Shown: positions 6,826 to 38,162 of the stretch, one piece after another
Position numbering within the stretch: position 1 is the first letter of the stretch
How the letters are laid out: every line of letters begins with the position of its first letter
NCBI GenBank assembly: GCA_019510095.1
Contig: JAEKLB010000023.1
Span: 1-54,307 of the forward strand
DNA length: 54,307 nucleotides
Origin: Acidobacteriota bacterium
GTDB lineage: Bacteria; Actinomycetota; Acidimicrobiia; Acidimicrobiales; CADCSY01
Reading direction: 5' to 3'
Program-made: the position numbers and the translations under genes
The notes under the pieces: generated by a model
What the model was told of the DNA's origin: nothing
Database searches by the model: none
What the model saw: the letters and a program-made list of their open reading frames with translations, nothing else

Positions 6826-7166
6826 GACCGCTCCGGCGCGGCCACGGCGTGTTCGATGGCGGTTCTCACGTGCTGTTCCAATGCTCGATGATCGATGGTG
6901 GCGACGGATGGCGACGCTCGCACCAGGTAGGCCCCCGCCGGCAACGTTTCCGACAGATCGGCGAAGATGGCACGAACCCGACGACGGGTGCGATTCCTGA
7001 CCACCGCGCCACCGACCTGGCGGTTGATGGCGCACGCCAACCGGGGCGGGCCGACGGGTGCGGGCAGCCAGGTGACCGACACCGAACCCGCTCGTCCCCG
7101 GCGACCGTGCCGGCGAAGCTCAGCGAAGGTCGATCGATCGCGGATGCGCCAGACCTCAGCGGCCAT
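6822..7166 (-). CDS. rnpA: RNase P protein component
   Basis: [10 protein letters not shown] (RNR motif); lies between rpmH and yidD. Confidence 0.92.
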
Positions 7167-7180
7167 CACTCCCGCCGGCA

Positions 7181-7315
7181 CTACGCCGACAGGCGGTGGC
7201 GGCCCTTGCGGCGCCGGGCGGCCAGGATGGCCCGGCCGGCGCGAGTGGACATACGGTGCCTGAACCCGTGGTTCTTGGCCCGCTTGCGGTTGTTGGGCTG
7301 AAACGTGCGCTTCAC
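7181..7315 (-). CDS. rpmH: 50S ribosomal protein L34 (not in ORF track)
   Basis: Manual translation [44 protein letters not shown]. Confidence 0.97.
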
Positions 7316-7561
7316 GACGCGTCCCTCTCTGGACGGAAAATGCAACGACGTGGCGCGACGGAACCAGGGGTCGCAGCCGACGTCCCAGCGGCCAGGCTAG
7401 AGCCTGCGGGCGGCGCGCGGCAACCGGGGAAGATTCCTCCGAAAACCCTGGTACGAGCCCTTGCTTTCGGCGGGGACGCCGGTGGTACCGTGCGCCTTCG
7501 TTCACTCGCCGGCACGCGTCCACCGGGGGGAGCGGGCCGGCCTGAGGCCGGGAACCCGGCG

Positions 7562-7581
7562 TTTTCCACAGGTGTGGACGG
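7562..7581. promoter_or_regulatory. DnaA boxes in the dnaA promoter region
   Basis: TTTTCCACA 7562-7570 plus inverted TGTGGACGG 7573-7581. Confidence 0.75.
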
Positions 7582-7630
7582 GTTTGTGGGTTCTCTGGGC
7601 GGCAGGGTCGGTGGCAGGGAGTACGAGCGA

Positions 7631-9019
7631 GTGGTCGAGGCGGAAGAGCTGTGGAGCGCCTGCGCAGAGGCCTTGCGAGCCGACGTGCCGGAGTCGGTGT
7701 GGAACAGCTGCTTCCAGGCCGCGGTCGGGGTCTCGTTGGAGAAGGACCTGTTGGTCGTGGCCGTGCCCTCGACGCTGGTCAAGGAGCGGCTGGAGAGTCG
7801 CTGGCTCGCCCCGGTCACCAGCGCGCTGGCTGACCTCGGCCGGCCCGGCCTGACCGTGGCCCTCGAGGTCCGCACCGACCAGCACCAGGAGGACGAGCCC
7901 ACCGTCGCCGCCGCCGGCTTCGCCAGTGCCCCGGCGCCGGCGAATGGCCAAACCCAGCTGGCGCTGACCGAGACCCGGGCCGACGAGCCCCGCCCCCAGA
8001 CGCTGAACCCCCGATACACCTTCGACGCCTTCGTCACCGGTGCGTCGAACCGCTTCGCCCACGCGGCGGCGCTGGCAGTGGCCGAGACGCCGGCCCGGTC
8101 GTACAACCCGCTGTTCATCTACGGCGTCGCCGGCCTGGGCAAGACCCACCTCCTCCACGGCATCGCCCACTACGTGCAGGAGAACTATCCGGCGTACAAG
8201 GTCCGCTACGTCTCCACCGAGGCGTTCCTGAACGACTACGTCGACGGCATCCGTACCAACTCGATGACCGCGTTCAAGCGCAAGTACCGGGAGAACGACG
8301 TCCTCCTGGTCGACGACATCCAGTTCATGGAGGGCAAGGAGGGGCTCCAGGAGGAGTTCTTCCACACGTTCAACCAGCTCCACGGGGCCAACCGCCAGAT
8401 CGTCCTGTCGTCGGACCGGCCGCCCCGGGCCATCGCCACCCTGGAGGACCGCCTCCGCAGCAGGTTCGAGTGGGGCCTCATCACCGACATCCAGCCGCCC
8501 GACCTCGAGACCCGGCTCGCCATCGTGCGCAAGAAGGCCGAGCGCGAGCCGATCCCGCCGCCGGCCGAGGTGCTGGAGTTCATCGCGACCCACATCACGA
8601 ACAACATCCGCGAGCTCGAGGGCGCCCTCATCCGGGTCTCGGCCTTCGCCAGCCTCAACCGGGCACCGATGACCGCCGAGCTCGCCGCCCAGGTGCTGGG
8701 TGACATCCTCACCGACTCACAGCCCCGGGCGATCACCGCCGGCATCATCCTGGACGCCACGTCGAAGATGTTCGGGTTCCCCGTCGAGGAGCTCCAGGGC
8801 AAGAGCCGGCGCCGCCCGCTCGTCACCGCCCGGCAGGTCGGCATGTACGTCTGCCGCGAGCTGACCGACCTCAGCTACCCGGCCATCGCCCGTGAGTACG
8901 GCGGGCGTGATCACACCACGGTGATCCACGCCGTGGAGAAGATCGGTGCCCTCATGAAGGAGCGTCGGCAGATCTACGACCAGGTCACCGAGCTCATCCA
9001 GTCGATCCGCTCCGGGTGA
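7631..9019 (+). CDS. dnaA: Replication initiator DnaA
   Basis: [34 protein letters not shown]; GTG start inferred. Confidence 0.98.
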
Positions 9020-9299
9020 CTGACCAGGCACAGGTAGTCCCTGTGGATGACCACCGCGCGACGGACAACCTTGTGCAGAGCCCTGTGGATGACTTGTGGG
9101 TAGCGGCGCTGACCACACAGGATCGGAACGAAGGTCACCGTTCGTGTCACACCGCTGTGCGACGCTGGGGACAGAGGTCGGACAGTGAAAGTGACTCCCA
9201 GCAGCCACATCGCGGAGTTATCCACGATCCACAGGTCTTACTGTTGTCACTAGAGAGATCTCTCCTTAGTAAGAGCAATAACCGAGGACAGGAGCGACG
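9020..9299. other. Replication origin oriC
   Basis: dnaA-dnaN intergenic region. DnaA boxes TGTGGATGA at 9042 and 9084, TGTGGGTAG 9095, TTATCCACG 9218, CGATCCACA 9225. DnaA-trio-like TAG TGA CAA CAG TAA GAC on the lower strand (9235-9252), then an AT-richer tract. Confidence 0.92.
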
Positions 9300-10391
9300 G
9301 TGAAGTTCCGCTGTGAGCGTGACGTGCTCGTCGAGGCGTTGGGCACCGCGACTCGGGCCGTCGCGAGTCGCGGTGGCGCGCTGCCGGTGCTCTCGGGCGT
9401 CAAGGCCGAGCTGATCGGCAACCGGTTGGTGCTCTCCGGCAGCGATCTCGACCTGACCATCCAGGTCGGCGTCGAGGTCGCCGGTCAGGCCGACGGGGTG
9501 GCCGTGCTGCCGGCGCGGCTGACCGCCGACATCGTGCGGGCGCTCGAGCCGGGTGCGGTCCACATCGAGGTCGAGGGCGAGGAGGGGCGCATCTCGTCGG
9601 GCCGCTCGCAGTTCGCCGTTCGCCTGTTGCCGGCCGACGACTTCCCGCGGCTGGCCGAGTCGGCAGCCGACGAGGTGACCCTCGACGCCGCGGCACTGGC
9701 CGAGGCCCTGCGCCAGGTGGTGCGGGCCGCCAGCCACGACGATGCCCGACCGATCCTCACCGGCGTGCTCATGGCGGCCGAAGGCGATGGGCTGCGCCTG
9801 GTGGCGACCGACTCCTATCGCCTCGCCGTGCGTGATCTGCCGGGTGCCAGTGTCCTCCGTGAGGGCCAGGCGGTGCTGGTGCCTTCCAAGGCACTGGGCG
9901 AGCTCGGTCGGGTGTTGACGACCGGCACGGTCACGCTGCGGCTCGGTGAGCGCGACGCCACCTTCGTGGTGGGCGACACGCGCCTCACCACCCGCCTGAT
10001 CGAGGGCGAGTTCCCCAACTACCGCCAGCTCATCCCGTCGACGCATCCCAACCGGCTCACCGTCGGGCGGGAGCCGCTGCTCGACGCCCTGCGCCGGGTC
10101 AAGCTCCTGGCCCGGGAGGCCACGCCGGTGCGCATCACGCTCAAGGGCGAGGGCATCGAGCTCACCGCCATCACCCAGGACGTCGGTCAGGCGCACGAGG
10201 ACCTCGATGCCAAGTACGAGGGCACCGAGATGGTGATCGCCTTCAACCCGGAGTACCTCGCCGATGGCGTCGAGGCCGTCGAAGGTGACGAGGTCACCCT
10301 GGAGACGGTCGATGCCCTCAAGCCGGCGGTCGTTCGCTCGGTCGAGAGCCAGGACTACCTGTACCTGTTGATGCCCGTCCGGGTGTCGTGA
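9300..10391 (+). CDS. dnaN: DNA polymerase III beta clamp
   Basis: ATDSYRLA, EGEFPNY, AFNPEYL, YLLMPVR. Confidence 0.98.
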   Translation: MKFRCERDVLVEALGTATRAVASRGGALPVLSGVKAELIGNRLVLSGSDLDLTIQVGVEVAGQADGVAVLPARLTADIVRALEPGAVHIEVEGEEGRISSGRSQFAVRLLPADDFPRLAESAADEVTLDAAALAEALRQVVRAASHDDARPILTGVLMAAEGDGLRLVATDSYRLAVRDLPGASVLREGQAVLVPSKALGELGRVLTTGTVTLRLGERDATFVVGDTRLTTRLIEGEFPNYRQLIPSTHPNRLTVGREPLLDALRRVKLLAREATPVRITLKGEGIELTAITQDVGQAHEDLDAKYEGTEMVIAFNPEYLADGVEAVEGDEVTLETVDALKPAVVRSVESQDYLYLLMPVRVS

Positions 10392-29306: not shown

Positions 29307-30179
29307 ATGCATGTCACAGGTGTCGGCATCTGCGGGCCCGAGTTGCGATACAGCGACGAGGGCGAGCGTGCCGACGCGGCGGCCGAGCTCGAGTCGCTGG
29401 GCTTCACCGCGCTGTGGCTACCCGACACCGGCGGCGATCTGTTCGGGCCGCTCCGCCTTCTGCTCGGTGCGACCCAGTCGATCACCGTCGCCAGTGGCAT
29501 CCTCAACATCTGGCTGCACGACCCGGTTGCTGTCGCGACCGAGTTCGCCGACGTCGAGCGCGCGCATCCAGGGCGCCTCCTCCTCGGCCTTGGCGTCGGC
29601 CACGCATCCCTGGTCGATCGCACGACGGAGCCGGGCCGATACCGCCGTCCGCTTGCTGCGATGGAGGGCTTCCTCGACGCCCTCGACGGAGCGGCCTCGG
29701 TCGTACCCGTCGAGCGGCGGATGATCGCCGCGCTCAGCCCGAAGATGCTCGCGTTGGCGCGCGACCGGACCGCCGGCGCCTTCCCCAATCTCGTGCCCCC
29801 GTCGCACACCGCGTCGGCCCGCGCTGCCATCGGCGGCCAGCGCCAGCTGGCCGTGGAGCAGCACGCCGTCCTCGAAACCGACCCAGCAGCAGCGCGTGCA
29901 ACGGCACGGGCCACCCTGGAGGGCTACTTCCGCCTACCGAACTACGTGAACAGCTGGCGATCGCTCGGCTTCGGCGAAGAGGACCTCACCGGCGGCGGCA
30001 GCGATCGGCTCATCGACACCATCGTCGCGTGGGGCGACGAGCACGCCATCGCTTGCCGCGTGCAGGAGCACTTCGATGCTGGAGCGGACCACGTCGGCCT
30101 ACGCATCACCGATCCGTCGTCGCAACCAGGTCTGCCGCTCACCTCCTGGCGAAGGTTGGCGCCCGCGGTGAACAACTAG
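29307..30179 (+). CDS. LLM-class F420-dependent oxidoreductase
   Basis: ASGILNIW, LGLGVGH, AALSPKML, LPNY, AGADHV. Confidence 0.88.
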   Translation: MHVTGVGICGPELRYSDEGERADAAAELESLGFTALWLPDTGGDLFGPLRLLLGATQSITVASGILNIWLHDPVAVATEFADVERAHPGRLLLGLGVGHASLVDRTTEPGRYRRPLAAMEGFLDALDGAASVVPVERRMIAALSPKMLALARDRTAGAFPNLVPPSHTASARAAIGGQRQLAVEQHAVLETDPAAARATARATLEGYFRLPNYVNSWRSLGFGEEDLTGGGSDRLIDTIVAWGDEHAIACRVQEHFDAGADHVGLRITDPSSQPGLPLTSWRRLAPAVNN

Positions 30180-30257
30180 GCGCTGAGCCGTGCCGGCGGG
30201 GCCTCTCGCTGGCGGTTGGTGTTCGGTCGCGAGCAGCGGGGTACACACCACGCAGAG

Positions 30258-30366
30258 AAGTCCCCACCCTGTGGATGACGTTGTGCACAACGACGGTCCC
30301 GGTGGGGATTTCGAGCCGCGATCTGGGGACCAACCGAAAAGGTTGGGGGACAACCCTGTGACTTAG
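30258..30366. promoter_or_regulatory. Distal DnaA-box cluster
   Basis: AAGTCCCCA-ccc-TGTGGATGA, TTGTGCACAA, GGGGGACAA; CCCTGTGGATGAC is identical to two oriC copies. Confidence 0.75.
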
Positions 30367-30423
30367 AAAATAGGCCTTGACCAGGGCTTTCGCAGGGTGG
30401 ATCCTGTGCTTACGCCACCCACG

Positions 30424-30606
30424 CAGGGCCGGCTGGGACGGACCTGGCAACAGGAACGAGCCAGTCAGCCAAGGCAGGAGGCGGAGGGACGTCGGCCCGG
30501 GAGGGGCGCTCGCAAGAGCGACCCAACCACCCGGCGGACCGGGGGAGTGGGCCCCGAGAAGCGGGGTGGCTTCGGCCACTCGGCTACTCGGGGCCATCCT
30601 CGTTTT
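30424..30606 (+). ncRNA. Putative structured ncRNA of unknown family
   Basis: CCTG-GCAA-CAGG and CGCTC-GCAA-GAGCG stems, then a long cUUCGg hairpin followed by GTTTT; no credible ORF. Confidence 0.7.
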
Positions 30607-30620
30607 CGGCTGGCCTCTCC

Positions 30621-32429
30621 TCAGCGCTGCTCGGCGTAGAGCTGGTCGATCTCGGCTTCGTAGCGAGCGTGGATGCCCCGCCGCTTCAGCTTCAGCGTCG
30701 GCGTCAGCTCCTCCGAATCGGCCAACCACTCGTTCGGCAGGATCACGAACCGCTTCACCCGCTCGGCCTTGTTGAACGGCGCCATCGCCTCCTCGACGCC
30801 GGCTTCCACCTCGGCGATGAGGTCGGTGTTCGCTGCCAGCTCCGCCAGGGCTGCACCGGCGAGACCGTGGGCCGCGGCCCAGGCCCGTGCCGCGTCGGGG
30901 TCGAGCACCAACAGCGCACCCACATACGGCCGGTCGTCGCCGACCGCGCAGGCCTGGCCGACCAGCGGGATGGTCTTGAGCGCCGCCTCGAGGTTGGCCG
31001 GGGAGATGTTCTCCCCGCCGGCGGTGATCAGCAGCTCCTTCTTGCGATCGACGATCCGGAGGTAGCCGTCGTGGTCGAGCTCGCCGATGTCGCCGGTGTG
31101 TAGCCACCCGTCGGCATCGACCGACTCGGCGGTGCGCATCGGGTCCTCGAGGTAGCCGGCGAACACGTTGCCGCCCCGGCCCAGCACCTCGCCGTCGTCG
31201 GCGACCCGGATCTCACAGCCGGGCATCGCCCTTCCCACAGTGCCGAGCTTGCCGTCATCGAGGTTGCAGGTGAGCGGTCCGGTGAACTCCGACATGCCGT
31301 ACACCTCGAACAGCGGGACGCCGACGGCGATGAACCACTCGACGACCTGTCGAGGGATGGGCGCCGCGCTGGTGATCGGCAGCCGGCAGGCGTCGAGGCC
31401 GACCAGCTCGCGCACCTGGTTGAAGGCGACCTCGTCGAGGAAGTCGAGCGTGACCTCTTCGTCATGGGTCAACTCCCGCTGGCGTTGGGCCAGCCGCAGG
31501 GGCAGCGCTGCCTCCACACCCTCCTCGAATGCATGCGCCTTGTCGGGGTCGGCCGCTACCGCCGCCAGCACGCCCGCCCGCAGCTTCTCCCACACCCGTG
31601 GCACACCGAACAGCAGCTCGGGGTGCACCAGGCGGAGGTACTCACCGAGTTGGGCCAGGTCGGGGCAGGTCGTCACCTGGTACCCGGAGGCCAGCGCGTC
31701 GTAGTGGGTGACCATGCGCTCGGCGATGTGGGCCATCGGCAGGTAGCTGATGGCGCGGAAGCCGGCCGGGCGGCGACCGAAGGCGATCTCCTGGCTGGCC
31801 ACCGTCCAGGCCACGTTGTGGTGCGAGATCATGACGCCCTTGGGCGGGCCGGTGGTGCCGGACGTGTAGATGATGGTGGCGAGGTCGTTGGGGGTGACCC
31901 GGCCAGCAGTGGCGTGCATGTCGATGGGCTCACCCGAGGTCAGGTGCTCCCAGGGCATGCACTCGAGGCAGCCCTCGTCGACGACCACGATCTCGCGGAG
32001 CCCCGGGAGCTGGTCGCGAACCTCCAGGAACCGGTCGGCGATCGCCGGCCCGTCGACGATGGCCATGGTGGCCTGCGAGTGGTCGGCGAGGTAGCGGACC
32101 TGCTCTGGTGACGACGAGATGTAGATCGAGACTGGCGTACCGCCGGCGAAGACCACGCCGAGGTCGGCGATCTGGAAGGCGATGCGGTTGTGCAGCATCA
32201 GGATGACCCGGTCACCCCGCTCGAGTCCCGCGGCGCGGAGACCACCGGCGACGCGGGCAACCGCGTCGGCGTACTGGGTCCAGTTCAGCTCGGTCCACCC
32301 GTCGCCTGCACCGGCGCGCTCGCGCAGCGCCACGTAGTCGTCGCCCAGCTGCTCGACGGTGTCGAGGAAGAGGCTGGCGACCGTGTGGCCTTCGGCCAGG
32401 CTGTCGATCTTCTCCCGGGTCACGTCCAT
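30621..32429 (-). CDS. Long-chain fatty acid-CoA ligase
   Basis: IYTSGTTGPPKG, YGMSE, GWLHTGD, DRKKELL. Confidence 0.93.
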   Translation of the reverse strand: MDVTREKIDSLAEGHTVASLFLDTVEQLGDDYVALRERAGAGDGWTELNWTQYADAVARVAGGLRAAGLERGDRVILMLHNRIAFQIADLGVVFAGGTPVSIYISSSPEQVRYLADHSQATMAIVDGPAIADRFLEVRDQLPGLREIVVVDEGCLECMPWEHLTSGEPIDMHATAGRVTPNDLATIIYTSGTTGPPKGVMISHHNVAWTVASQEIAFGRRPAGFRAISYLPMAHIAERMVTHYDALASGYQVTTCPDLAQLGEYLRLVHPELLFGVPRVWEKLRAGVLAAVAADPDKAHAFEEGVEAALPLRLAQRQRELTHDEEVTLDFLDEVAFNQVRELVGLDACRLPITSAAPIPRQVVEWFIAVGVPLFEVYGMSEFTGPLTCNLDDGKLGTVGRAMPGCEIRVADDGEVLGRGGNVFAGYLEDPMRTAESVDADGWLHTGDIGELDHDGYLRIVDRKKELLITAGGENISPANLEAALKTIPLVGQACAVGDDRPYVGALLVLDPDAARAWAAAHGLAGAALAELAANTDLIAEVEAGVEEAMAPFNKAERVKRFVILPNEWLADSEELTPTLKLKRRGIHARYEAEIDQLYAEQR

Positions 32430-32441
32430 GCGGCGTCCCTC

Positions 32442-33644
32442 CTACAGCCGGATCACCATGCGGGTGCCCATCCCGTCGACCGGCTCGTCGAGGGTCAGGG
32501 CGGCACCGACCGCCCCCAACAGGGTCTGGGCCATCGGCAGCCCGAGCCCCATGCCCGGCACGGTGGTGTGCTCCTGGGACCGGGTGAATCGCTCGAAGAC
32601 ATGCGACCGCTCGTCGGGCCCGATGCCAGGCCCGTCGTCGACCACCTCGATCGACGGCTCCTCGGTCACGATCAGGCGGCACGACCCCGCGTACTTGAGG
32701 GCGTTGTCGACGAGGAATCCCACTGCCCGGCCGAGGAGGGCGGGGTCGGTGTCCACGATCACGTCCTTCGCCGGCACCTCGACGGTCACCTGCTCGGGGT
32801 GGCTCGACTGCCGGCAGGCATCGAAGGCCACCGGCCCCAGCCCAACGGGCCTGATCTCGGCGGCCACCACGCCGGCCTCGAGCCGGGCCAGCATCAGCAG
32901 CTCGTCGATGAGGCCGGACAGTCGGGCGGCGGCGCCGTCGATTCGCTGGAGCATCCGGCGGCGCTCGTCGGGGCCGAGTGCCTCGTCCTCGGTCAGCAGC
33001 GTGCTCACGAAGCCGCTGACGATGGTGATCGGCGTGCGCAGCTCGTGTGAGACCCGGGCGATGAAATCGCTCTTCATCACCTCGAGCTCGGCCACCGACT
33101 CGTAGCGGCGGGCGCTCTCGATGGCACCGGCCGCCTGGGTGGCGAGGGCCTCGAGGAACATCAGGTCGTCTTCGGTGAAGGCGTCGATCTCGGTGGTGGT
33201 GACCTGGAGCGTCCCGATCACCTGGCCGAGGGCCACGAGCGGCACGGCGAGGATCGACACCACGCCGGCGGCAGCGCTGCGCTCGGCTCCGTCGACGGCC
33301 ATCCGCGGATCGTCGGCCACGTTGCCCGACAGCAGCGGTTGGGCGGTCGCGAGCACCCGACCGGCGATGCCCTGCCCGATGGGGACGCGGTCCTGGTCGA
33401 GCTCGCGCCTGGTCGGTGGATCGGACGCCACCAGTTGTAGGCCGTCGTCGCCGAGGATGGCGATCGAGCCGGTGGTGAACGAGACGAGCGACCGCATGCC
33501 GTTGAGCACGATCTGGAGGACGGCCTGGAGGTTGAGTGCGGGCCCGATGTCGCGGCTGACCTGGTTGAGCACGCGCGACACCCGCTCGAGCCGCTCGTGG
33601 CGGTCGGGAAGCTTCTCGTCCGGCGGGGGGGACGATGTCGTCAT
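32442..33644 (-). CDS. GAF-domain sensor histidine kinase (cytoplasmic, orphan)
   Basis: GAF domain, SHELRTP, DNALKY, DDGPGI, GLGL. Confidence 0.9.
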   Translation of the reverse strand: MTTSSPPPDEKLPDRHERLERVSRVLNQVSRDIGPALNLQAVLQIVLNGMRSLVSFTTGSIAILGDDGLQLVASDPPTRRELDQDRVPIGQGIAGRVLATAQPLLSGNVADDPRMAVDGAERSAAAGVVSILAVPLVALGQVIGTLQVTTTEIDAFTEDDLMFLEALATQAAGAIESARRYESVAELEVMKSDFIARVSHELRTPITIVSGFVSTLLTEDEALGPDERRRMLQRIDGAAARLSGLIDELLMLARLEAGVVAAEIRPVGLGPVAFDACRQSSHPEQVTVEVPAKDVIVDTDPALLGRAVGFLVDNALKYAGSCRLIVTEEPSIEVVDDGPGIGPDERSHVFERFTRSQEHTTVPGMGLGLPMAQTLLGAVGAALTLDEPVDGMGTRMVIRL

Positions 33645-33764
33645 CGTTGGGATCATTGTGGCGAATGGGACCCGCGGCCACCATGACCACGACGGGCCGT
33701 TCCTGTCATGGTCAACGGCGGTGCCGCACATGCGGTAGCGCGACGACGGGGCACATACTTGGTC

Positions 33765-34952
33765 ATGCCCACTGCAGTCATCATCGATGCCGTCCGGACC
33801 CCCGGTGGCAAGCGGAACGGCTCGCTGTCGGGATGGCACCCGGTCGAGCTGGCCGCCGAGACGTTGAACGCGCTCGTGGCCCGCAGCGGGATCGACCCAG
33901 GGCTCGTCGACGACGTGATCATGGGATGCGTCCACCAGGCGGGCCGGCAGGCGCTCAACATCGCTCGCAACGCCGTGCTGTCAGCGGGTTGGCCCGAGGG
34001 GGTGCCGGGCACCACGATCGATCGCCAGTGCGGCTCGTCCCAGCAGGCTGCCCACTTCGCGGCCCAGGGCGTGCTGGCTGGCGCCTACGACGTGGTGGTG
34101 GCCGCCGGCATCGAGGTCATGACCACGACGCCGTTCGGCTCGAACCTGGTGCCCGGCGTCTCGCCGTTCGGGCGGACCCTCGAGGCCCGCTACGAGCCGG
34201 CCGGCGGGCTGGTGCCGCAGGGCATCTCGGCGGAGCTGATCGCCGAGCGCTGGGGCTTCAGCCGGGAGCAGCTCGACGCCTTCGGTGCCGAGTCGCAACA
34301 GCGGGCTGCCCGGGCTCGTGACGAGGGCCGCTTCGACAACGAGATCGTGCCCATGGCCGGCAAGAAGTGGGACCAGGAGAAGGGCACCTCGGTGGGCCTG
34401 GGCACCACGGTCACCGCCGACGAGGGCATCCGGCCCGACACCACGGTCGAGACCCTCGCCAACCTCAAGCCCGCCTTCCTTCCCGAGGGCAGGATCACGG
34501 CCGGCAACTCGTCGCAGATCACCGACGGTGCCTCGGCGATGCTGATCACCAGCGAGGAGACGGCGTCGAAGCTCGGCCTCCGGCCCCGCGCCCGGTTCCA
34601 CAGCTTCGCCCTCGCCGGCGATGACCCCCGCCTCATGCTCACCGCCCCCATCCCCGCCACCGAGAAGATCCTGCGGAAGGCCGGGCTCACGCTCGACCAG
34701 ATCGACCGGGTGGAGATCAACGAGGCCTTCGCCTCGGTGGTGCTGGCCTGGGCGACCGAGCACCACGCCGACATGAGCAAGGTCAATGTGAACGGCGGGG
34801 CGATCGCCCTCGGTCACCCCCTCGGGGCCACCGGCGCCAAGCTGTTCGCCACTCTGCTCAACGAGCTCGAGCGCATCGACGGCCGCTATGGCCTGGTCAC
34901 CATGTGCGAAGGCGGTGGCACGGCCAACGCCACCATCATCGAGCGGCTCTGA
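33765..34952 (+). CDS. Acetyl-CoA acyltransferase (thiolase)
   Basis: QCGSS, NEAF, GHPLGATG, MCEGGG. Confidence 0.95.
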   Translation: MPTAVIIDAVRTPGGKRNGSLSGWHPVELAAETLNALVARSGIDPGLVDDVIMGCVHQAGRQALNIARNAVLSAGWPEGVPGTTIDRQCGSSQQAAHFAAQGVLAGAYDVVVAAGIEVMTTTPFGSNLVPGVSPFGRTLEARYEPAGGLVPQGISAELIAERWGFSREQLDAFGAESQQRAARARDEGRFDNEIVPMAGKKWDQEKGTSVGLGTTVTADEGIRPDTTVETLANLKPAFLPEGRITAGNSSQITDGASAMLITSEETASKLGLRPRARFHSFALAGDDPRLMLTAPIPATEKILRKAGLTLDQIDRVEINEAFASVVLAWATEHHADMSKVNVNGGAIALGHPLGATGAKLFATLLNELERIDGRYGLVTMCEGGGTANATIIERL

Positions 34953-36212: not shown

Positions 36213-38162
36213 TCAGCCGGTGGCGGCCGTCGTCGTCGTGGAGCTCGACCCGTTGGTACGGAAGGAACCGACGGTGATGGTGACGGTCGAGCCCTCGGCC
36301 GCCTGCGTCCCGCCCGCGGGCGACTGGTTGAGCACGACGCCGTCCTGGCCGGGGTCGCTGACCTCCTGGAAGGTCCGCTGCACGCTGTAACCGGCGGCGC
36401 GCAGCTCGGCGCCCGCTTGGATGTGGTTCTCGCCGATGACGTTGGGCACCTCGGGTGCGGGGCCGCTCGACGTGTAGATGTGGACGTTCGATCCCTTGTC
36501 GGCCGCGGTACCGGCCGGCGGATCGGTGCGAGTGACCTTGCCCTCCTCGACGGTGTTGCTGGGCTCGTCGGTCGTGCTGCTGTCGGCCACGAAGCCGGCC
36601 CGGCCGAGCTGGTTGGCCGCGTCGGTCGGGCTGAGCCCGGTCACGTCGGGTATCTGCACCTGGCCCGGTCCCTGCGACACGGTGATGCGCACGGCCGAGC
36701 CCCGCTGGGCCTGCTCACCCGGTTGCGGGCTCTGGTCGAGCACCGTGCCCGGGTCATGGGCGTCGTCGTTGACGCGGCTGATGCCGGCCTCCAACCCGGC
36801 CGCCCGCAGCGCGGCGAGTGCATCGGCCTCCGTCCGGCCGACGAGATCCGGCACCGTGACCGGTCCCTTTCCGGTGCTCACCTTCACCGTCACCGAGCTG
36901 CCCTTGCCGGCGCTGGTGTTCGGCGCCGGGTCCTGGCTGATGACCGCCCCCTCGGGGACGGTGTCGCTCGACTCGTCCTGGAAGTCCGCGTGCAAGCCGG
37001 CGTCCTTCAGCTTGATCCGGGCGTCGTTCTTGGTGAGCCCGAGCACCGACGGAACGGTGACGGTGCCACCTCCGCCCCCTCCGTCGCCGCTGAGGCTGGC
37101 GGCGATGGCGGCCGCGCCACCGGCGATCAGCAGGGCGATCAGCCCGACGACGACGTAGAACAGCGGGCTGCGCCGGGCCGGAGGCGGTGCCGTGCCGCCA
37201 CCGACGCTGGTCATGACCCGGGTGGAGTCGGCGAGGGGGATTGCCCGGGTGGCCTCGCCGGCAGCGGTGGTCCCGACGGCCTGGGTGAAGTCCTCGGCCG
37301 CCAGCACCGACTCGGCCTGCACGGGAGCACCCTCGATGAACCGGCGCAGGTCGGCGGCGAAGTCGTCGGCGCTGTCGTAGCGGTTGGCCGGGTTCTTGGC
37401 GAGGGCCCGCATCGTCACCGCCTCGAGCGGTGCGGGGATGCGGGGGTTGCGCCGCCGGGGGAGCTCGGCCTGCTCCGACACGTGCTTGTAGGCCACCGAC
37501 ACCGGGCTGTCGCCGGTGAACGGCGGCGCGCCCACCAGCAGCTCGTAGAGCACGATGCCGAGCGAGTAGACGTCGCTGCGGGGATCGACCGGCTCGCCCC
37601 TGGCCTGCTCGGGCGAGAAGTAGGTCGCGGTACCCATGACCGTGCCGGTCTGGGTGAGGTTCTCGCTGGCTGAGACGGCGCGGGCGATGCCGAAGTCGGT
37701 GACCTTGACCTGGCCCTGTGGCGCCAGCAGCACGTTGCCCGGCTTCACGTCGCGGTGGATCACACCGTTGCGATGGGCGAAGCCGAGGGCGCCGGCGATC
37801 GACTGGGTGATCTCGGCCGCCCGGGTGGGCTCGAGCGGGCCCTCGTCGCGCACGATCTGCGACAGGCTGCGCCCGTCGATGTACTCCATGACGATGAAGT
37901 AGGTGCTCCCTTCCTCACCCCAGTCGTAGACGGCGACGATGTTCGGGTGGTTGAGGTTGGCGGCGGCCTGGGCCTCACGGCGGAACCGCTCGACGAACGA
38001 GTGGTCGGTCGCGAACTCGGGGAACAGGACCTTCAGGGCGACTGGGCGGTCGAGCAGCGTGTCGCGGGCGAGGTAGACGTCGGCCATCCCACCGCGTGCG
38101 AGCCGGCGCTCGATCTCGTAGCGGCCGCCGTAGACCTCCGGTCCGGATCCCGAGTCGGTCAT
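36213..38162 (-). CDS. pknB: PASTA-domain Ser/Thr kinase
   Basis: HRDVKPGN, DFG, TM, four PASTA repeats. Confidence 0.95.
   Translation of the reverse strand: MTDSGSGPEVYGGRYEIERRLARGGMADVYLARDTLLDRPVALKVLFPEFATDHSFVERFRREAQAAANLNHPNIVAVYDWGEEGSTYFIVMEYIDGRSLSQIVRDEGPLEPTRAAEITQSIAGALGFAHRNGVIHRDVKPGNVLLAPQGQVKVTDFGIARAVSASENLTQTGTVMGTATYFSPEQARGEPVDPRSDVYSLGIVLYELLVGAPPFTGDSPVSVAYKHVSEQAELPRRRNPRIPAPLEAVTMRALAKNPANRYDSADDFAADLRRFIEGAPVQAESVLAAEDFTQAVGTTAAGEATRAIPLADSTRVMTSVGGGTAPPPARRSPLFYVVVGLIALLIAGGAAAIAASLSGDGGGGGGTVTVPSVLGLTKNDARIKLKDAGLHADFQDESSDTVPEGAVISQDPAPNTSAGKGSSVTVKVSTGKGPVTVPDLVGRTEADALAALRAAGLEAGISRVNDDAHDPGTVLDQSPQPGEQAQRGSAVRITVSQGPGQVQIPDVTGLSPTDAANQLGRAGFVADSSTTDEPSNTVEEGKVTRTDPPAGTAADKGSNVHIYTSSGPAPEVPNVIGENHIQAGAELRAAGYSVQRTFQEVSDPGQDGVVLNQSPAGGTQAAEGSTVTITVGSFRTNGSSSTTTTAATG

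What the first reader, a model, noticed from the sequence alone, without database searches (positions are those of the whole stretch)
30424..30606. Unrecognised ~180-nt structured RNA near oriC
Seen in sequence: this ORF-free region folds by eye into three domains. P1 pairs 30427-30436 with 30461-30470, has symmetric GA/AG and GA/AA internal loops and is capped by CCTG-GCAA-CAGG. P2 is GTC/GAC, CCGGG/CCCGG and CGCTC-GCAA-GAGCG. P3 is a perfect 9-bp GGCCCCGAG/CTCGGGGCC stem plus GGGTGGC-TTCG-GCCACTC, followed by GTTTT. Established: GNRA and cUUCGg tetraloops are hallmarks of functional RNA, and here they fix the + strand. A purine-rich linker (30471-30490) holds an SD-like AGGAGG with no start codon behind it, and there are nine GGA triplets. 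No gene lies downstream on this strand, so it is not a cis riboswitch. Inference: a trans-acting RNA such as an RNAP-binding Ms1/6S analogue, a CsrA-type sponge, or a new class.
Basis: partly seen in the sequence, partly recalled or inferred. Interest (0 to 1): 0.82.

Follow-up and report, generated by a model that had tools for sequence, protein, structure and literature searches.

The report
New small RNA behind DnaA boxes
This is a real structured RNA gene of about 195 bases, found in RNA libraries and belonging to an undescribed family found mainly in Acidimicrobiia; its promoter sits behind a regularly spaced row of sites that look like binding sites for the replication initiator DnaA, which hints at a link between chromosome replication and RNA-based regulation.

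Summary
The three-domain fold is in the sequence as described (+ strand z = -5.6). It is part of a stand-alone gene:
- a -35 TTGACC (30377-30382), a 17-nt spacer and a -10 GATCCT (30400-30405);
- an RNA of about 195 nt (about 30412-30606);
- a conserved 3' hairpin followed by UUUU.

No Rfam 15 family matches it or 18 homologous loci.

Homologues of 190-400 nt occur in 38 of 150 sampled genomes of its class and in 9 genomes elsewhere in the phylum. They share the promoter and an almost invariant terminal hairpin with compensatory changes. The neighbouring genes vary.

Upstream of the -35, most homologues carry same-strand DnaA-box-like hexamers at fixed positions (-107, -85, -74, -53, -32, -20). 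The spacings are 11, 21-22 and 32 bp. The distal box is identical to two boxes in this genome's dnaA-dnaN origin.

Short contigs from four RNA libraries lie on the RNA body.

"Near oriC" holds here (21 kb from dnaA) but not in ten other genomes (0.26-0.50 genome lengths away).

A CsrA-sponge role is not supported: 26 of 38 carrier genomes lack csrA. An Ms1/6S role has no positive support.

Best reading: a new sRNA family that is probably controlled by DnaA. Its downstream function is unknown.

The parts
30269..30363 (+). Array of DnaA-box-like sites upstream of the promoter. Boxes start at 30270 (CTGTGGATGAC), 30303, 30324, 30345 and 30357. That is -107, -74, -53, -32 and -20 from the -35. An inverted TTGTGCACA lies at 30281-30289.
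   Evidence: The sequence is. The 11-mer at 30269-30279 is identical to two boxes in the dnaA-dnaN spacer at 9041-9051 and 9083-9093. The positions match the family-wide preferred positions. Family-wide, the hexamer is enriched to 2.47 per 130 nt against 0.06-0.15 in controls.
30377..30382 (+). -35 hexamer TTGACC
   Evidence: TTGAC/TTGCC, then 16-18 nt, then NANNNT lies 150-380 nt upstream of the hairpin in 108 of 133 hairpin hits.
30400..30405 (+). -10 hexamer GATCCT, 17 nt after the -35. The predicted start of transcription is near 30412.
   Evidence: Homologues have CATGCT, CAGAGT, CATGGT or CAAGGT at the same spacing. This is inference from promoter geometry; the start is not mapped.
30412..30606 (+). 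The RNA, about 195 nt
   Evidence: Fold. RNA-library contigs lie on 30422-30607. The homologue in L009 aligns over the full length at 99.1 bits.
30413..30483 (+). Domain 1: a long irregular hairpin.
   Evidence: Minimum-energy and centroid folds agree. The aligned homologues keep the helices: 87-98% of cells are paired in helices 1-4.
30486..30540 (+).
   Evidence: The basal helix CGUCGG/CCGGCG becomes CGAGAG/CUUUCG in L009 and CGGAGA/UCUCCG in L015, which are compensatory changes.
30542..30601 (+). Domain 3: the conserved terminal hairpin. It has a lower helix, a 9-bp stem, an R-A mismatch, AGC/GCU and a variable upper stem capped by UUCG.
   Evidence: 125-sequence alignment A2. Pairs that the search pattern did not fix show changes on both sides in 3 to 29 sequences each. 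Model R1 scores 61.4 bits on the + strand and 34.9 on the - strand.
30602..30606 (+). GUUUU tail. Together with domain 3 it forms an intrinsic terminator.
   Evidence: Sequence. RNA-library fragments run into sequencing adapter at 30592 and 30601.

Best explanation
This is a stand-alone gene for a structured small RNA of about 195 nt. It belongs to a family that is not in Rfam 15 and that my literature searches did not find.

**Shown or directly read from sequence**
- It has its own housekeeping-type promoter: TTGACC, 17 nt, GATCCT.
- It ends at a conserved hairpin that also serves as an intrinsic terminator.
- The family occurs patchily in Acidimicrobiia and in a few other Actinomycetota.
- Family members share the promoter, a conserved 5' strand, the single-stranded joints (GAGGGAC-like and GGACCGRGG) and above all the 3' hairpin. 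The middle domains vary in sequence and length.

**Inferred**
- Directly upstream of the promoter lies a row of same-orientation DnaA boxes at helically phased positions. DnaA, probably as an ATP-dependent oligomer as on origin arrays, binds there and sets the transcription rate. The level of the RNA would then report the state of the replication initiator.

**More speculative**
- The RNA then acts in trans through its invariant terminal hairpin, most likely as a binding site for a protein.
- It thereby couples replication status to some downstream process.
For: **Structure**
- z = -5.6 on the + strand. The minimum-energy and centroid folds agree.

**Family**
Nearly all named records are labelled Acidimicrobiia or Acidimicrobiales.
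- A covariance model of the hairpin (R1) hits 38 of 150 genomes sampled from the class, in 34 of 81 genera.
- In a sample of 150 genomes from the phylum it hits 12, of which 9 lie outside the class.

**Promoter**
- The promoter motif is present in 108 of 133 hairpin hits, always with a 17-18 nt spacer.

**Box array**
- TG[GT]GGA occurs on average 2.47 times in the 130 nt upstream on the same strand, against 0.06-0.15 in three control windows and 0.16 on the opposite strand.
- 67 of 87 distinct loci have two or more boxes.
- The boxes sit at -107, -96, -85/-86, -74/-75, -53, -32 and -20. The spacings are 11 (40 times), 21 (50), 22 (32) and 32 (32).
- The window has boxes at five of these positions.
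- The distal box CTGTGGATGAC is identical to two boxes in this genome's dnaA-dnaN spacer.
- Both box types also cluster beside dnaA in five other genomes.
- Four loci carry canonical TGTCCACAA/TTATCCAGA boxes at the same place.

**Covariation**
- Hairpin pairs outside the search pattern show changes on both sides in 29, 17, 24, 19, 14, 13, 7, 5 and 3 of 125 sequences.
- Domain 2 helices are compensated in L009 and L015.
- Over the whole structure, 90.5% of cells are paired against 69.8% in shuffles. There are 567 double changes against 177, and 0 of 500 shuffles reach this.

**RNA-library contigs**
- Contigs of 141-207 nt from four RNA libraries of four studies lie on 30422-30607.
- One is 100% identical to the window.
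- Three run into Illumina adapter, at 30544, 30592 and 30601.
Against: **No experiment here shows DnaA binding.**
- Most boxes are TGGGGA-type.
- 14 of 87 loci have no strict box.
- Members outside the class mostly lack the array.

**Ends and strand are not mapped.**
- Contigs cannot show strand or true ends.
- One RNA-library contig (X18, from a relative) runs on into the neighbouring gene.

**Distribution is patchy.**
- The RNA is missing from 112 of 150 class genomes with the strict filters.
- It is missing from both genomes of the same genus. This argues against an essential cell-cycle role.

**Limits of the covariation evidence.**
- The whole-RNA covariation count comes from an alignment fitted to the window's own fold, and that alignment contains some minus-strand and partial rows.
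- Only one homologue (L009) aligns strongly over domains 1 and 2.

**No target or partner has been identified.**
Confidence: 0.5

Rival explanations
1. An Ms1/6S-like RNA that binds RNA polymerase and stores or sequesters it. It would fill the gap left by the missing 6S RNA.
For: - The Rfam 6S model finds nothing in G000 or in 0 of 101 genomes sampled from the class.
- The family's length range (190-400 nt) and its fast-evolving sequence with conserved ends resemble what is reported for Ms1 (PMC9130861, sections read).
- In this genome the gene is 21 kb from dnaA. Ms1 is reported to lie close to ori (PMC4191392, passages read).
Against: - The fold is three independent domains. The 5' and 3' ends do not close a rod, and there is no large central bubble.
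- No HAD-IB hydrolase is a neighbour.
- The gene is read away from dnaA, whereas Ms1 is reported to be read towards ori.
- It lies 0.26-0.50 genome lengths from dnaA in ten other genomes.
- It is found in only 38 of 150 class genomes and is absent from both congeners. This is unlike the syntenic, widespread Ms1.
- No Rfam family hits. I did not confirm that Rfam 15 holds an Ms1 model; the 2022 paper says Rfam lists Ms1 candidates.
- A DnaA array is not a known Ms1 feature (recalled).
Confidence: 0.12
2. The functional unit is the DNA. The locus would be a DnaA-binding site away from the origin (a datA/DARS-like titration or reactivation site, or an origin-like remnant). Transcription from the adjacent promoter would modulate DnaA occupancy, and the RNA would be secondary.
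For: - The phased same-orientation boxes resemble origin-type arrays.
- The locus sits at mid-replichore to terminus positions in ten genomes.
- Some genomes carry tandem or paired copies: L009, L015 and L047, and G087, G144 and G179.
Against: - The RNA itself is under selection. The hairpin sequence is nearly invariant, helices carry compensatory changes, and members outside the class keep the RNA but not the array.
- The patchy distribution is odd for a replication-control site.
Confidence: 0.15
3. A CsrA-sequestering sponge RNA. GGA motifs would titrate the translational regulator CsrA.
For: - There are nine GGA triplets in 183 nt.
- G000 does encode a CsrA homologue, at 86.9 bits on contig C31.
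Against: - Only 12 of the 38 genomes with the RNA have csrA. 26 lack it, many of them 96-100% complete. Independence would predict about 10.
- All three hairpin loops are GCAA, GCAA and UUCG, and none presents GGA.
- Several GGA triplets are predicted to be paired.
Confidence: 0.03
4. Nothing but terminator hairpins of the two convergent genes in a long spacer.
For: - The flanking genes converge.
- P3 plus the U tract is terminator-like.
- A separate terminator-like site lies at 30191-30214, right after the upstream gene.
Against: - The same promoter-RNA-hairpin module recurs in more than 100 loci with unrelated neighbours. Only 1 of 129 loci shares the acyl-CoA synthetase neighbour.
- The upstream gene already has its own terminator-like site.
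- RNA-library contigs lie on the module.
Confidence: 0.02

Closest known systems
Ms1 RNA (MTS2823 / scr3559) of Actinomycetia
   Same: It is an actinobacterial stand-alone sRNA of 200-300 nt with a housekeeping-type promoter. Its sequence evolves quickly, and it occurs in a phylum without a recognisable 6S RNA. In this one genome the gene also lies near the origin.
   Different: The predicted fold is three domains, not a rod with a bubble. There is no HAD-IB hydrolase synteny. It is read away from dnaA and lies far from dnaA in ten other genomes. Its distribution is patchy. It has an invariant 3' hairpin and a DnaA-box array that are not reported for Ms1. RNAP binding was not tested.
6S RNA (Rfam RF00013)
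   Same: The size is similar, and it could in principle act by binding a protein.
   Different: There is no match to the model. There is no closing stem, central bubble or terminal stem architecture.
CcnA of Caulobacter crescentus (PMC8959179; title and abstract seen in the listing)
   Same: It is a non-coding RNA tied to the control of chromosome replication; its abstract links CcnA to the master cell-cycle regulators CtrA and GcrA. From recall, not seen in the abstract: its gene lies at the origin and a master regulator drives its promoter. This is the nearest analogue in concept.
   Different: The phylum differs. The regulator from recall is CtrA, not DnaA. There is no sequence or structural likeness. 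Here the link to the cell cycle is inferred only from the boxes.
DnaA-box clusters outside the origin (E. coli datA, DARS1/2; B. subtilis DnaA-box clusters) - recalled
   Same: It is a cluster of DnaA boxes away from oriC, at mid-replichore to terminus positions in most genomes.
   Different: Those elements are not known (from recall) to be fused to a promoter that drives a conserved structured RNA. Binding here is untested.
CsrB/RsmY-type sponge RNAs
   Same: It is purine-rich with several GGA triplets, and a csrA gene exists in this genome.
   Different: The GGA triplets are not in hairpin loops. Most genomes with the RNA lack csrA.

Membership tests
Ms1 RNA | [quoted passage not shown] | not testable with these tools
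   This needs co-immunoprecipitation or a pull-down.
Ms1 RNA | [quoted passage not shown] | tested here: not met
   The minimum-energy and centroid folds give three separate domains. The ends are not paired to each other.
Ms1 RNA | Synteny with a HAD-IB hydrolase / phosphoserine phosphatase gene (PMC9130861) | tested here: not met
   The neighbours are a luciferase-like monooxygenase, an acyl-CoA synthetase, a GAF histidine kinase, DUF5063 and LMF1. The neighbours are not conserved in the family: 1 of 129 loci shares one.
Ms1 RNA | Close to ori and transcribed towards it | tested here: not met
   The gene is 21 kb from dnaA but read away from it. In ten other genomes it lies 0.26-0.50 genome lengths from dnaA.
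6S RNA | Match to Rfam RF00013, with closing stem, central bubble and terminal stem | tested here: not met
   There is no hit in the window at the gathering score or at E up to 10. There is none in G000.
CsrB/Rsm sponge | Co-occurs with CsrA; many GGA motifs presented in loops | tested here: not met
   12 of 38 carrier genomes have csrA. The loops are GCAA, GCAA and UUCG.
Any Rfam 15 family | Score at or above the gathering threshold | tested here: not met
   Only tRNAs pass in the window. The best local hits are hairpin look-alikes: mir-935 at 27 bits against a threshold of 73, and F6 at 22 against 46. Nothing was found on 18 homologous loci.
DnaA-regulated promoter / DnaA-box cluster | Several DnaA boxes like those of the organism's own oriC, in ordered arrangement | tested here: met
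   The 11-mer is identical to two oriC boxes. The enrichment is 20- to 40-fold. The positions are fixed and helically phased.
DnaA-regulated promoter / DnaA-box cluster | DnaA binds and changes transcription | not testable with these tools
   This needs a footprint, ChIP or reporter assays.
Intrinsic terminator | GC-rich stem followed by a U tract at the RNA's 3' end | tested here: met
   The stem is 30542-30601 and GUUUU is 30602-30606. In most of the 125 aligned homologues the tail is CGCGUCC, without a U tract.

The most novel reading that the evidence does not exclude
Acidimicrobiia wire a structured small RNA directly to the replication initiator. A phased, origin-like DnaA oligomerisation array acts as the control region of an sRNA promoter. 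The RNA level would then track DnaA-ATP, and the RNA (or the transcribed locus itself, in the manner of datA or DARS) would feed replication status back onto DnaA or onto cell-cycle genes. I found no description of a DnaA-driven riboregulator.
Probability: 0.3. Interest if true: 0.85.

Novelty: new variant of a known kind. Interest (0 to 1): 0.66.

Why it matters
**An undescribed RNA family in a poorly studied class**
- Acidimicrobiia are abundant in soil, water and sponges, yet I found almost nothing in print on their regulatory RNAs.
- The literature searches found no description of this RNA, nor of an sRNA driven by a DnaA-box array.
- The RNA has a clear gene structure, contigs from RNA libraries lie on it, and it occurs in a cultured strain with a complete genome. 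It is therefore ready for experiments.

**A possible link between replication and RNA regulation**
- If DnaA binds the phased box array, this would be a direct link between replication initiation and RNA-based regulation.
- It would also show an origin-type DnaA array reused as a promoter control region.

**A candidate protein-binding module**
- The terminal hairpin is nearly invariant and survives even as a hairpin-only mini-gene in other classes. It may be a protein-binding module shared across Actinomycetota.

Tried and rejected
1. **Rfam.** The gathering-score scan of the whole window, and E-value scans of the locus and of 18 homologous loci, gave nothing usable. The weak F6 hit (22 bits) did not recur on homologues, so I treat it as a chance GC hairpin.

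2. **SRP RNA resemblance.** A recalled likeness of the domain 1/2 joint to SRP RNA domain IV was checked. G000's own SRP RNA lies on contig C78 and shares at most a 7-mer with this RNA. Rejected.

3. **CsrA sponge.** Rejected on co-occurrence.

4. **Conserved synteny.**
   - tblastn of 11 window proteins against 129 oriented loci found one shared neighbour in L010 and one in L011.
   - In the same-genus genomes G001 and G002, the orthologous flanking genes have other neighbours and no RNA.

5. **'Near oriC' as a property of the family.** Rejected. GC skew within the window shows no switch at 30.3 kb.

6. **Alignment problems.**
   - Plain MAFFT alignment of full-length RNAs misaligned domain 1.
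   - The model R2, built from the window's sequence alone, aligned only L009 strongly. Most other matches rest on the hairpin.
   - Covariation for domains 1 and 2 therefore rests on few sequences.

7. **Promoter scan.** The E. coli-style scan found no promoter. The -10 GATCCT scores 3 of 6 against TATAAT. The promoter call rests on conservation instead.

8. **Read laying.**
   - No RNA-library contig lay on 30250-30421 or 30608-30640.
   - Missing cover in contigs proves nothing, so I do not use it for the RNA's ends.

9. **Rows dropped.**
   - Before alignment A2, I dropped L073 and L082 (labelled Flavobacterium and Chloroflexia) as chance hits, and I dropped exact duplicates. L040 and a few other doubtful rows stayed in.
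   - One search counted only loci with at least 700 nt of flank on each side: 87 distinct loci.

Full report
**1. What the sequence shows**

The region lies in a 441-nt spacer (30180-30620). On one side is a luciferase-like monooxygenase gene (+, 29307-30179). On the other is a converging AMP-binding acyl-CoA synthetase gene (-, 30621-32429).

A codon-bias gene call finds no coding ORF in the spacer. The mechanical ORFs there have no Pfam match.

Folding 30424-30606 gives -109.2 kcal/mol on the + strand, z = -5.60, with 0 of 200 shuffles as good. The - strand gives z = -3.59.

- The lower part of P2 pairs in another register (30490-30495 with 30531-30536).
- The nine GGA triplets are there.

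**2. It is a gene with a promoter**

Homologues were first found by BLAST in related genomes. In them the hairpins are preceded at a set distance by TTGACC, 17-18 nt, and cANNNT.

In the window these are TTGACC at 30377-30382 and GATCCT at 30400-30405. That puts the start of the RNA near 30412.

Folded from there, the RNA has three domains. Minimum-energy and centroid structures agree.

| Domain | Coordinates |
|---|---|
| D1 | 30413-30483 |
| D2 | 30486-30540 |
| D3 | 30542-30601 |
| GUUUU tail | 30602-30606 |

The 5' leader pairs with the purine-rich 'linker'. The SD-like AGGAGG is therefore probably not free.

**3. The family**

- Nearly all named records are labelled Acidimicrobiia, Acidimicrobiales, Acidimicrobiaceae, Microthrixaceae or Iamiaceae.
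- They include the cultured Aquihabitans daechungensis DSM 27986.
- A few are labelled only Actinomycetota or Actinomycetes.
- Two (Flavobacterium, Chloroflexia) look like chance.

Of 133 hairpin hits, 108 have the promoter motif 150-380 nt upstream. By my own estimate from base composition, chance would give about 5. The RNAs are therefore 190-400 nt long, and the window's is among the shortest.

A covariance model of the hairpin (R1, built from 125 sequences) gave these counts:
- 38 of 150 genomes sampled from the class, in 34 of 81 genera. It found none in several well-sampled families: 0 of 35 and 0 of 17.
- 12 of 150 genomes sampled from the phylum. Nine of these lie outside the class, including 5 of 5 in one genus.
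- None in the two other genomes of the window's own genus, which are 91% and 97% complete.

In those two genomes the orthologous flanking genes have other neighbours.

Neighbouring genes are not conserved: 1 of 129 loci shares the synthetase.

Some genomes carry two copies close together: L009, L015 and L047, and G087, G144 and G179.

**4. Structure is conserved**

*The hairpin alignment (A2).* The columns fixed by the search pattern are invariant by construction. The pairs outside the pattern show changes on both sides in 29, 17, 24, 19, 5 and 3 sequences (lower helix) and in 14, 7 and 13 sequences (upper helix) of 125.

*The whole RNA.* A model of the window's own sequence and fold (R2) aligns the homologue in L009 over its whole length at 99.1 bits.
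- The basal helix of D2 changes from CGUCGG/CCGGCG to CGAGAG/CUUUCG in L009 and to CGGAGA/UCUCCG in L015.
- The apex keeps a GCAA loop on a different stem.

*Pair counts over 94 aligned matches.*

| Measure | Observed | Control |
|---|---|---|
| Cells paired | 90.5% | 69.8% in shuffles; 34-47% with slid partners |
| Changes on both sides | 567 | 177 in shuffles |
| Shuffles reaching the observed values | 0 of 500 | |

That alignment was fitted to the window's fold. It also holds partial rows and some minus-strand rows, so it leans towards the structure.

*Conserved and variable parts.* The single-stranded joints are conserved (GAGGGAC-like between D1 and D2; GGACCGRGG before D3). The bodies of D1 and D2 vary.

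*Not a coding region.* Gaps between the window and L009 are not multiples of three, which argues against one.

**5. The array in front of the promoter**

Upstream of the -35, homologues carry repeats of [CT]TG[GT]GGA[CTA][GA]A on the RNA's strand.

*Enrichment.* The strict hexamer TG[GT]GGA occurs 2.47 times on average in the 130 nt upstream. It occurs 0.16 times on the other strand and 0.06-0.15 times in control windows.
- 67 of 87 distinct loci have two or more.
- 41 have three or more.
- 14 have none.

*Fixed positions.* The boxes stand at -107, -96, -85/-86, -74/-75, -53, -32 and -20 from the -35. The spacings are 11 (40 times), 21 (50), 22 (32) and 32 (32), which are multiples of one helical turn. 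The window has boxes at -107, -74, -53, -32 and -20.

*Why I read them as DnaA boxes.*
- They are one mismatch from the canonical box (recalled consensus).
- The distal one, CTGTGGATGAC, is identical to two boxes in this genome's dnaA-dnaN spacer. That spacer also holds TGGGGA-type boxes, inverted TTATCCAC-type boxes and an AT-rich stretch.
- Both box types cluster beside dnaA in five other genomes.
- Four loci have textbook TGTCCACAA/TTATCCAGA boxes at the same place, in the opposite orientation.

Binding is inferred, not shown.

**6. Evidence from RNA libraries**

Four metatranscriptome runs from four studies hold short contigs (141-207 nt) that lie on the RNA.

| Run | Covers | Note |
|---|---|---|
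| X5 | 30422-30544 | 100% identical; runs into Illumina adapter at 30544 |
| X16 | 30462-30601 | Two contigs; one runs into adapter at 30601 |
| X17 | 30473-30592 | Runs into adapter at 30592 |
| X18 | 30474-30607 | A relative; continues into unlike sequence resembling the neighbouring gene |

The adapters mean the sequenced fragments ended at those points. Contigs cannot give the strand, the level or the true ends, and DNA can be present in RNA libraries. This is supportive, not proof.

**7. 'Near oriC'**

dnaA (7076-9019) and dnaN (9282-10391) are in the window. The RNA gene is therefore 21 kb from the origin and is read away from it.

In ten complete or nearly complete genomes of other families, the gene lies 0.26-0.50 genome lengths from dnaA. 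In five fragmented genomes of the same family it is on a different contig from dnaA.

Proximity is therefore not a property of the family.

**8.

*Rfam.* Nothing matches.

*6S RNA.* It is absent from G000 and from 0 of 101 genomes sampled from the class. The niche is open, but the fold is not 6S-like.

*Ms1.* The testable features are not met, and binding cannot be tested.
- Rod with a bubble: not met.
- HAD-IB hydrolase synteny: not met.
- Read towards ori: not met.
- Wide syntenic conservation: not met.

Sources: PMC9130861 (outline and sections 7, 19, 22, 23 read) and PMC4191392 (passages read).

*CsrA.* G000 has a csrA gene. However, only 12 of the 38 genomes with the RNA have one, and the loops do not present GGA.

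**9. Mechanism**

- Shown or read from sequence: a stand-alone gene, a conserved promoter, conserved structure, a terminator, and the box array.
- Inferred: DnaA oligomerises on the array and sets promoter activity. The RNA acts in trans through its invariant hairpin, probably by binding a protein.
- The main rival is that the DNA array is the functional part, like datA or DARS, with transcription modulating it.
- The patchy distribution argues for an accessory role rather than an essential one.

**10. Novelty**

No Rfam family matches. Literature searches found no description of this RNA or of an sRNA driven by a DnaA-box array.

The nearest analogues in concept are:
- CcnA of Caulobacter (title and abstract seen in the listing);
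- DnaA-box clusters outside the origin (recalled).

I rate it a new variant of a known kind: a new sRNA family with an unusual control region.

**Rows from unpublished genomes.** L011 (G006) and L199 (G347) are single rows or examples.

Noticed in passing
window 9020-9281: The dnaA-dnaN spacer looks like oriC. It holds CTGTGGATGAC twice (42 bp apart), a TTGTGGGTA box 11 bp after the second, a TGGGGACAG box, inverted TTATCCAC/ATCCACAGG boxes and an AT-rich end. dnaA is at 7076-9019 and dnaN at 9282-10391.
   Followed up: partly
L206 (G301:C19), L085 (VAWS01000079.1), L199 (G347, unpublished): In other Actinomycetota classes, the conserved hairpin occurs as a mini-gene. A TTGNNN-17-TATNNT promoter is followed within about 7 nt by the hairpin alone and a U tract, giving an RNA of about 55-60 nt. 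This suggests the hairpin is the functional core of the family.
   Followed up: partly
L201, L202, L203, L205, L208 (genus g135, outside the class): All 5 of 5 sampled genomes of one genus carry an RNA of about 235 nt that ends in the same hairpin. A single CTGGGGA box overlaps the -35, and there is no array.
   Followed up: partly
G000 contig C31:6490-6645: A csrA homologue (86.9 bits) is present. csrA is found in 39 of 150 genomes sampled from the class, which I did not expect for Actinomycetota.
   Followed up: partly
L009 (G009:C357), L015 (G011:C184), L047, G087:C1:21634-22239: The whole box-promoter-RNA module occurs in tandem or as a divergent pair within 0.5-1 kb. In L009 and L015 the two copies differ in their middle domains.
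   Followed up: no
alignment A2, upper stem of the hairpin: Many homologues have a purine-rich symmetric internal loop (GGA/GAA, or GGAC/GGAC with tandem G-A pairs) in the upper stem. The window has plain Watson-Crick pairs there.
   Followed up: no
window 30191-30214: A terminator-like hairpin lies right after the monooxygenase gene, so that gene does not need the RNA's hairpins to terminate.
   Followed up: no
window 36213-38162: A PknB-type Ser/Thr kinase with four PASTA domains lies here, and a GAF histidine kinase at 32442-33935. This gene content is typical near an actinobacterial origin.
   Followed up: no
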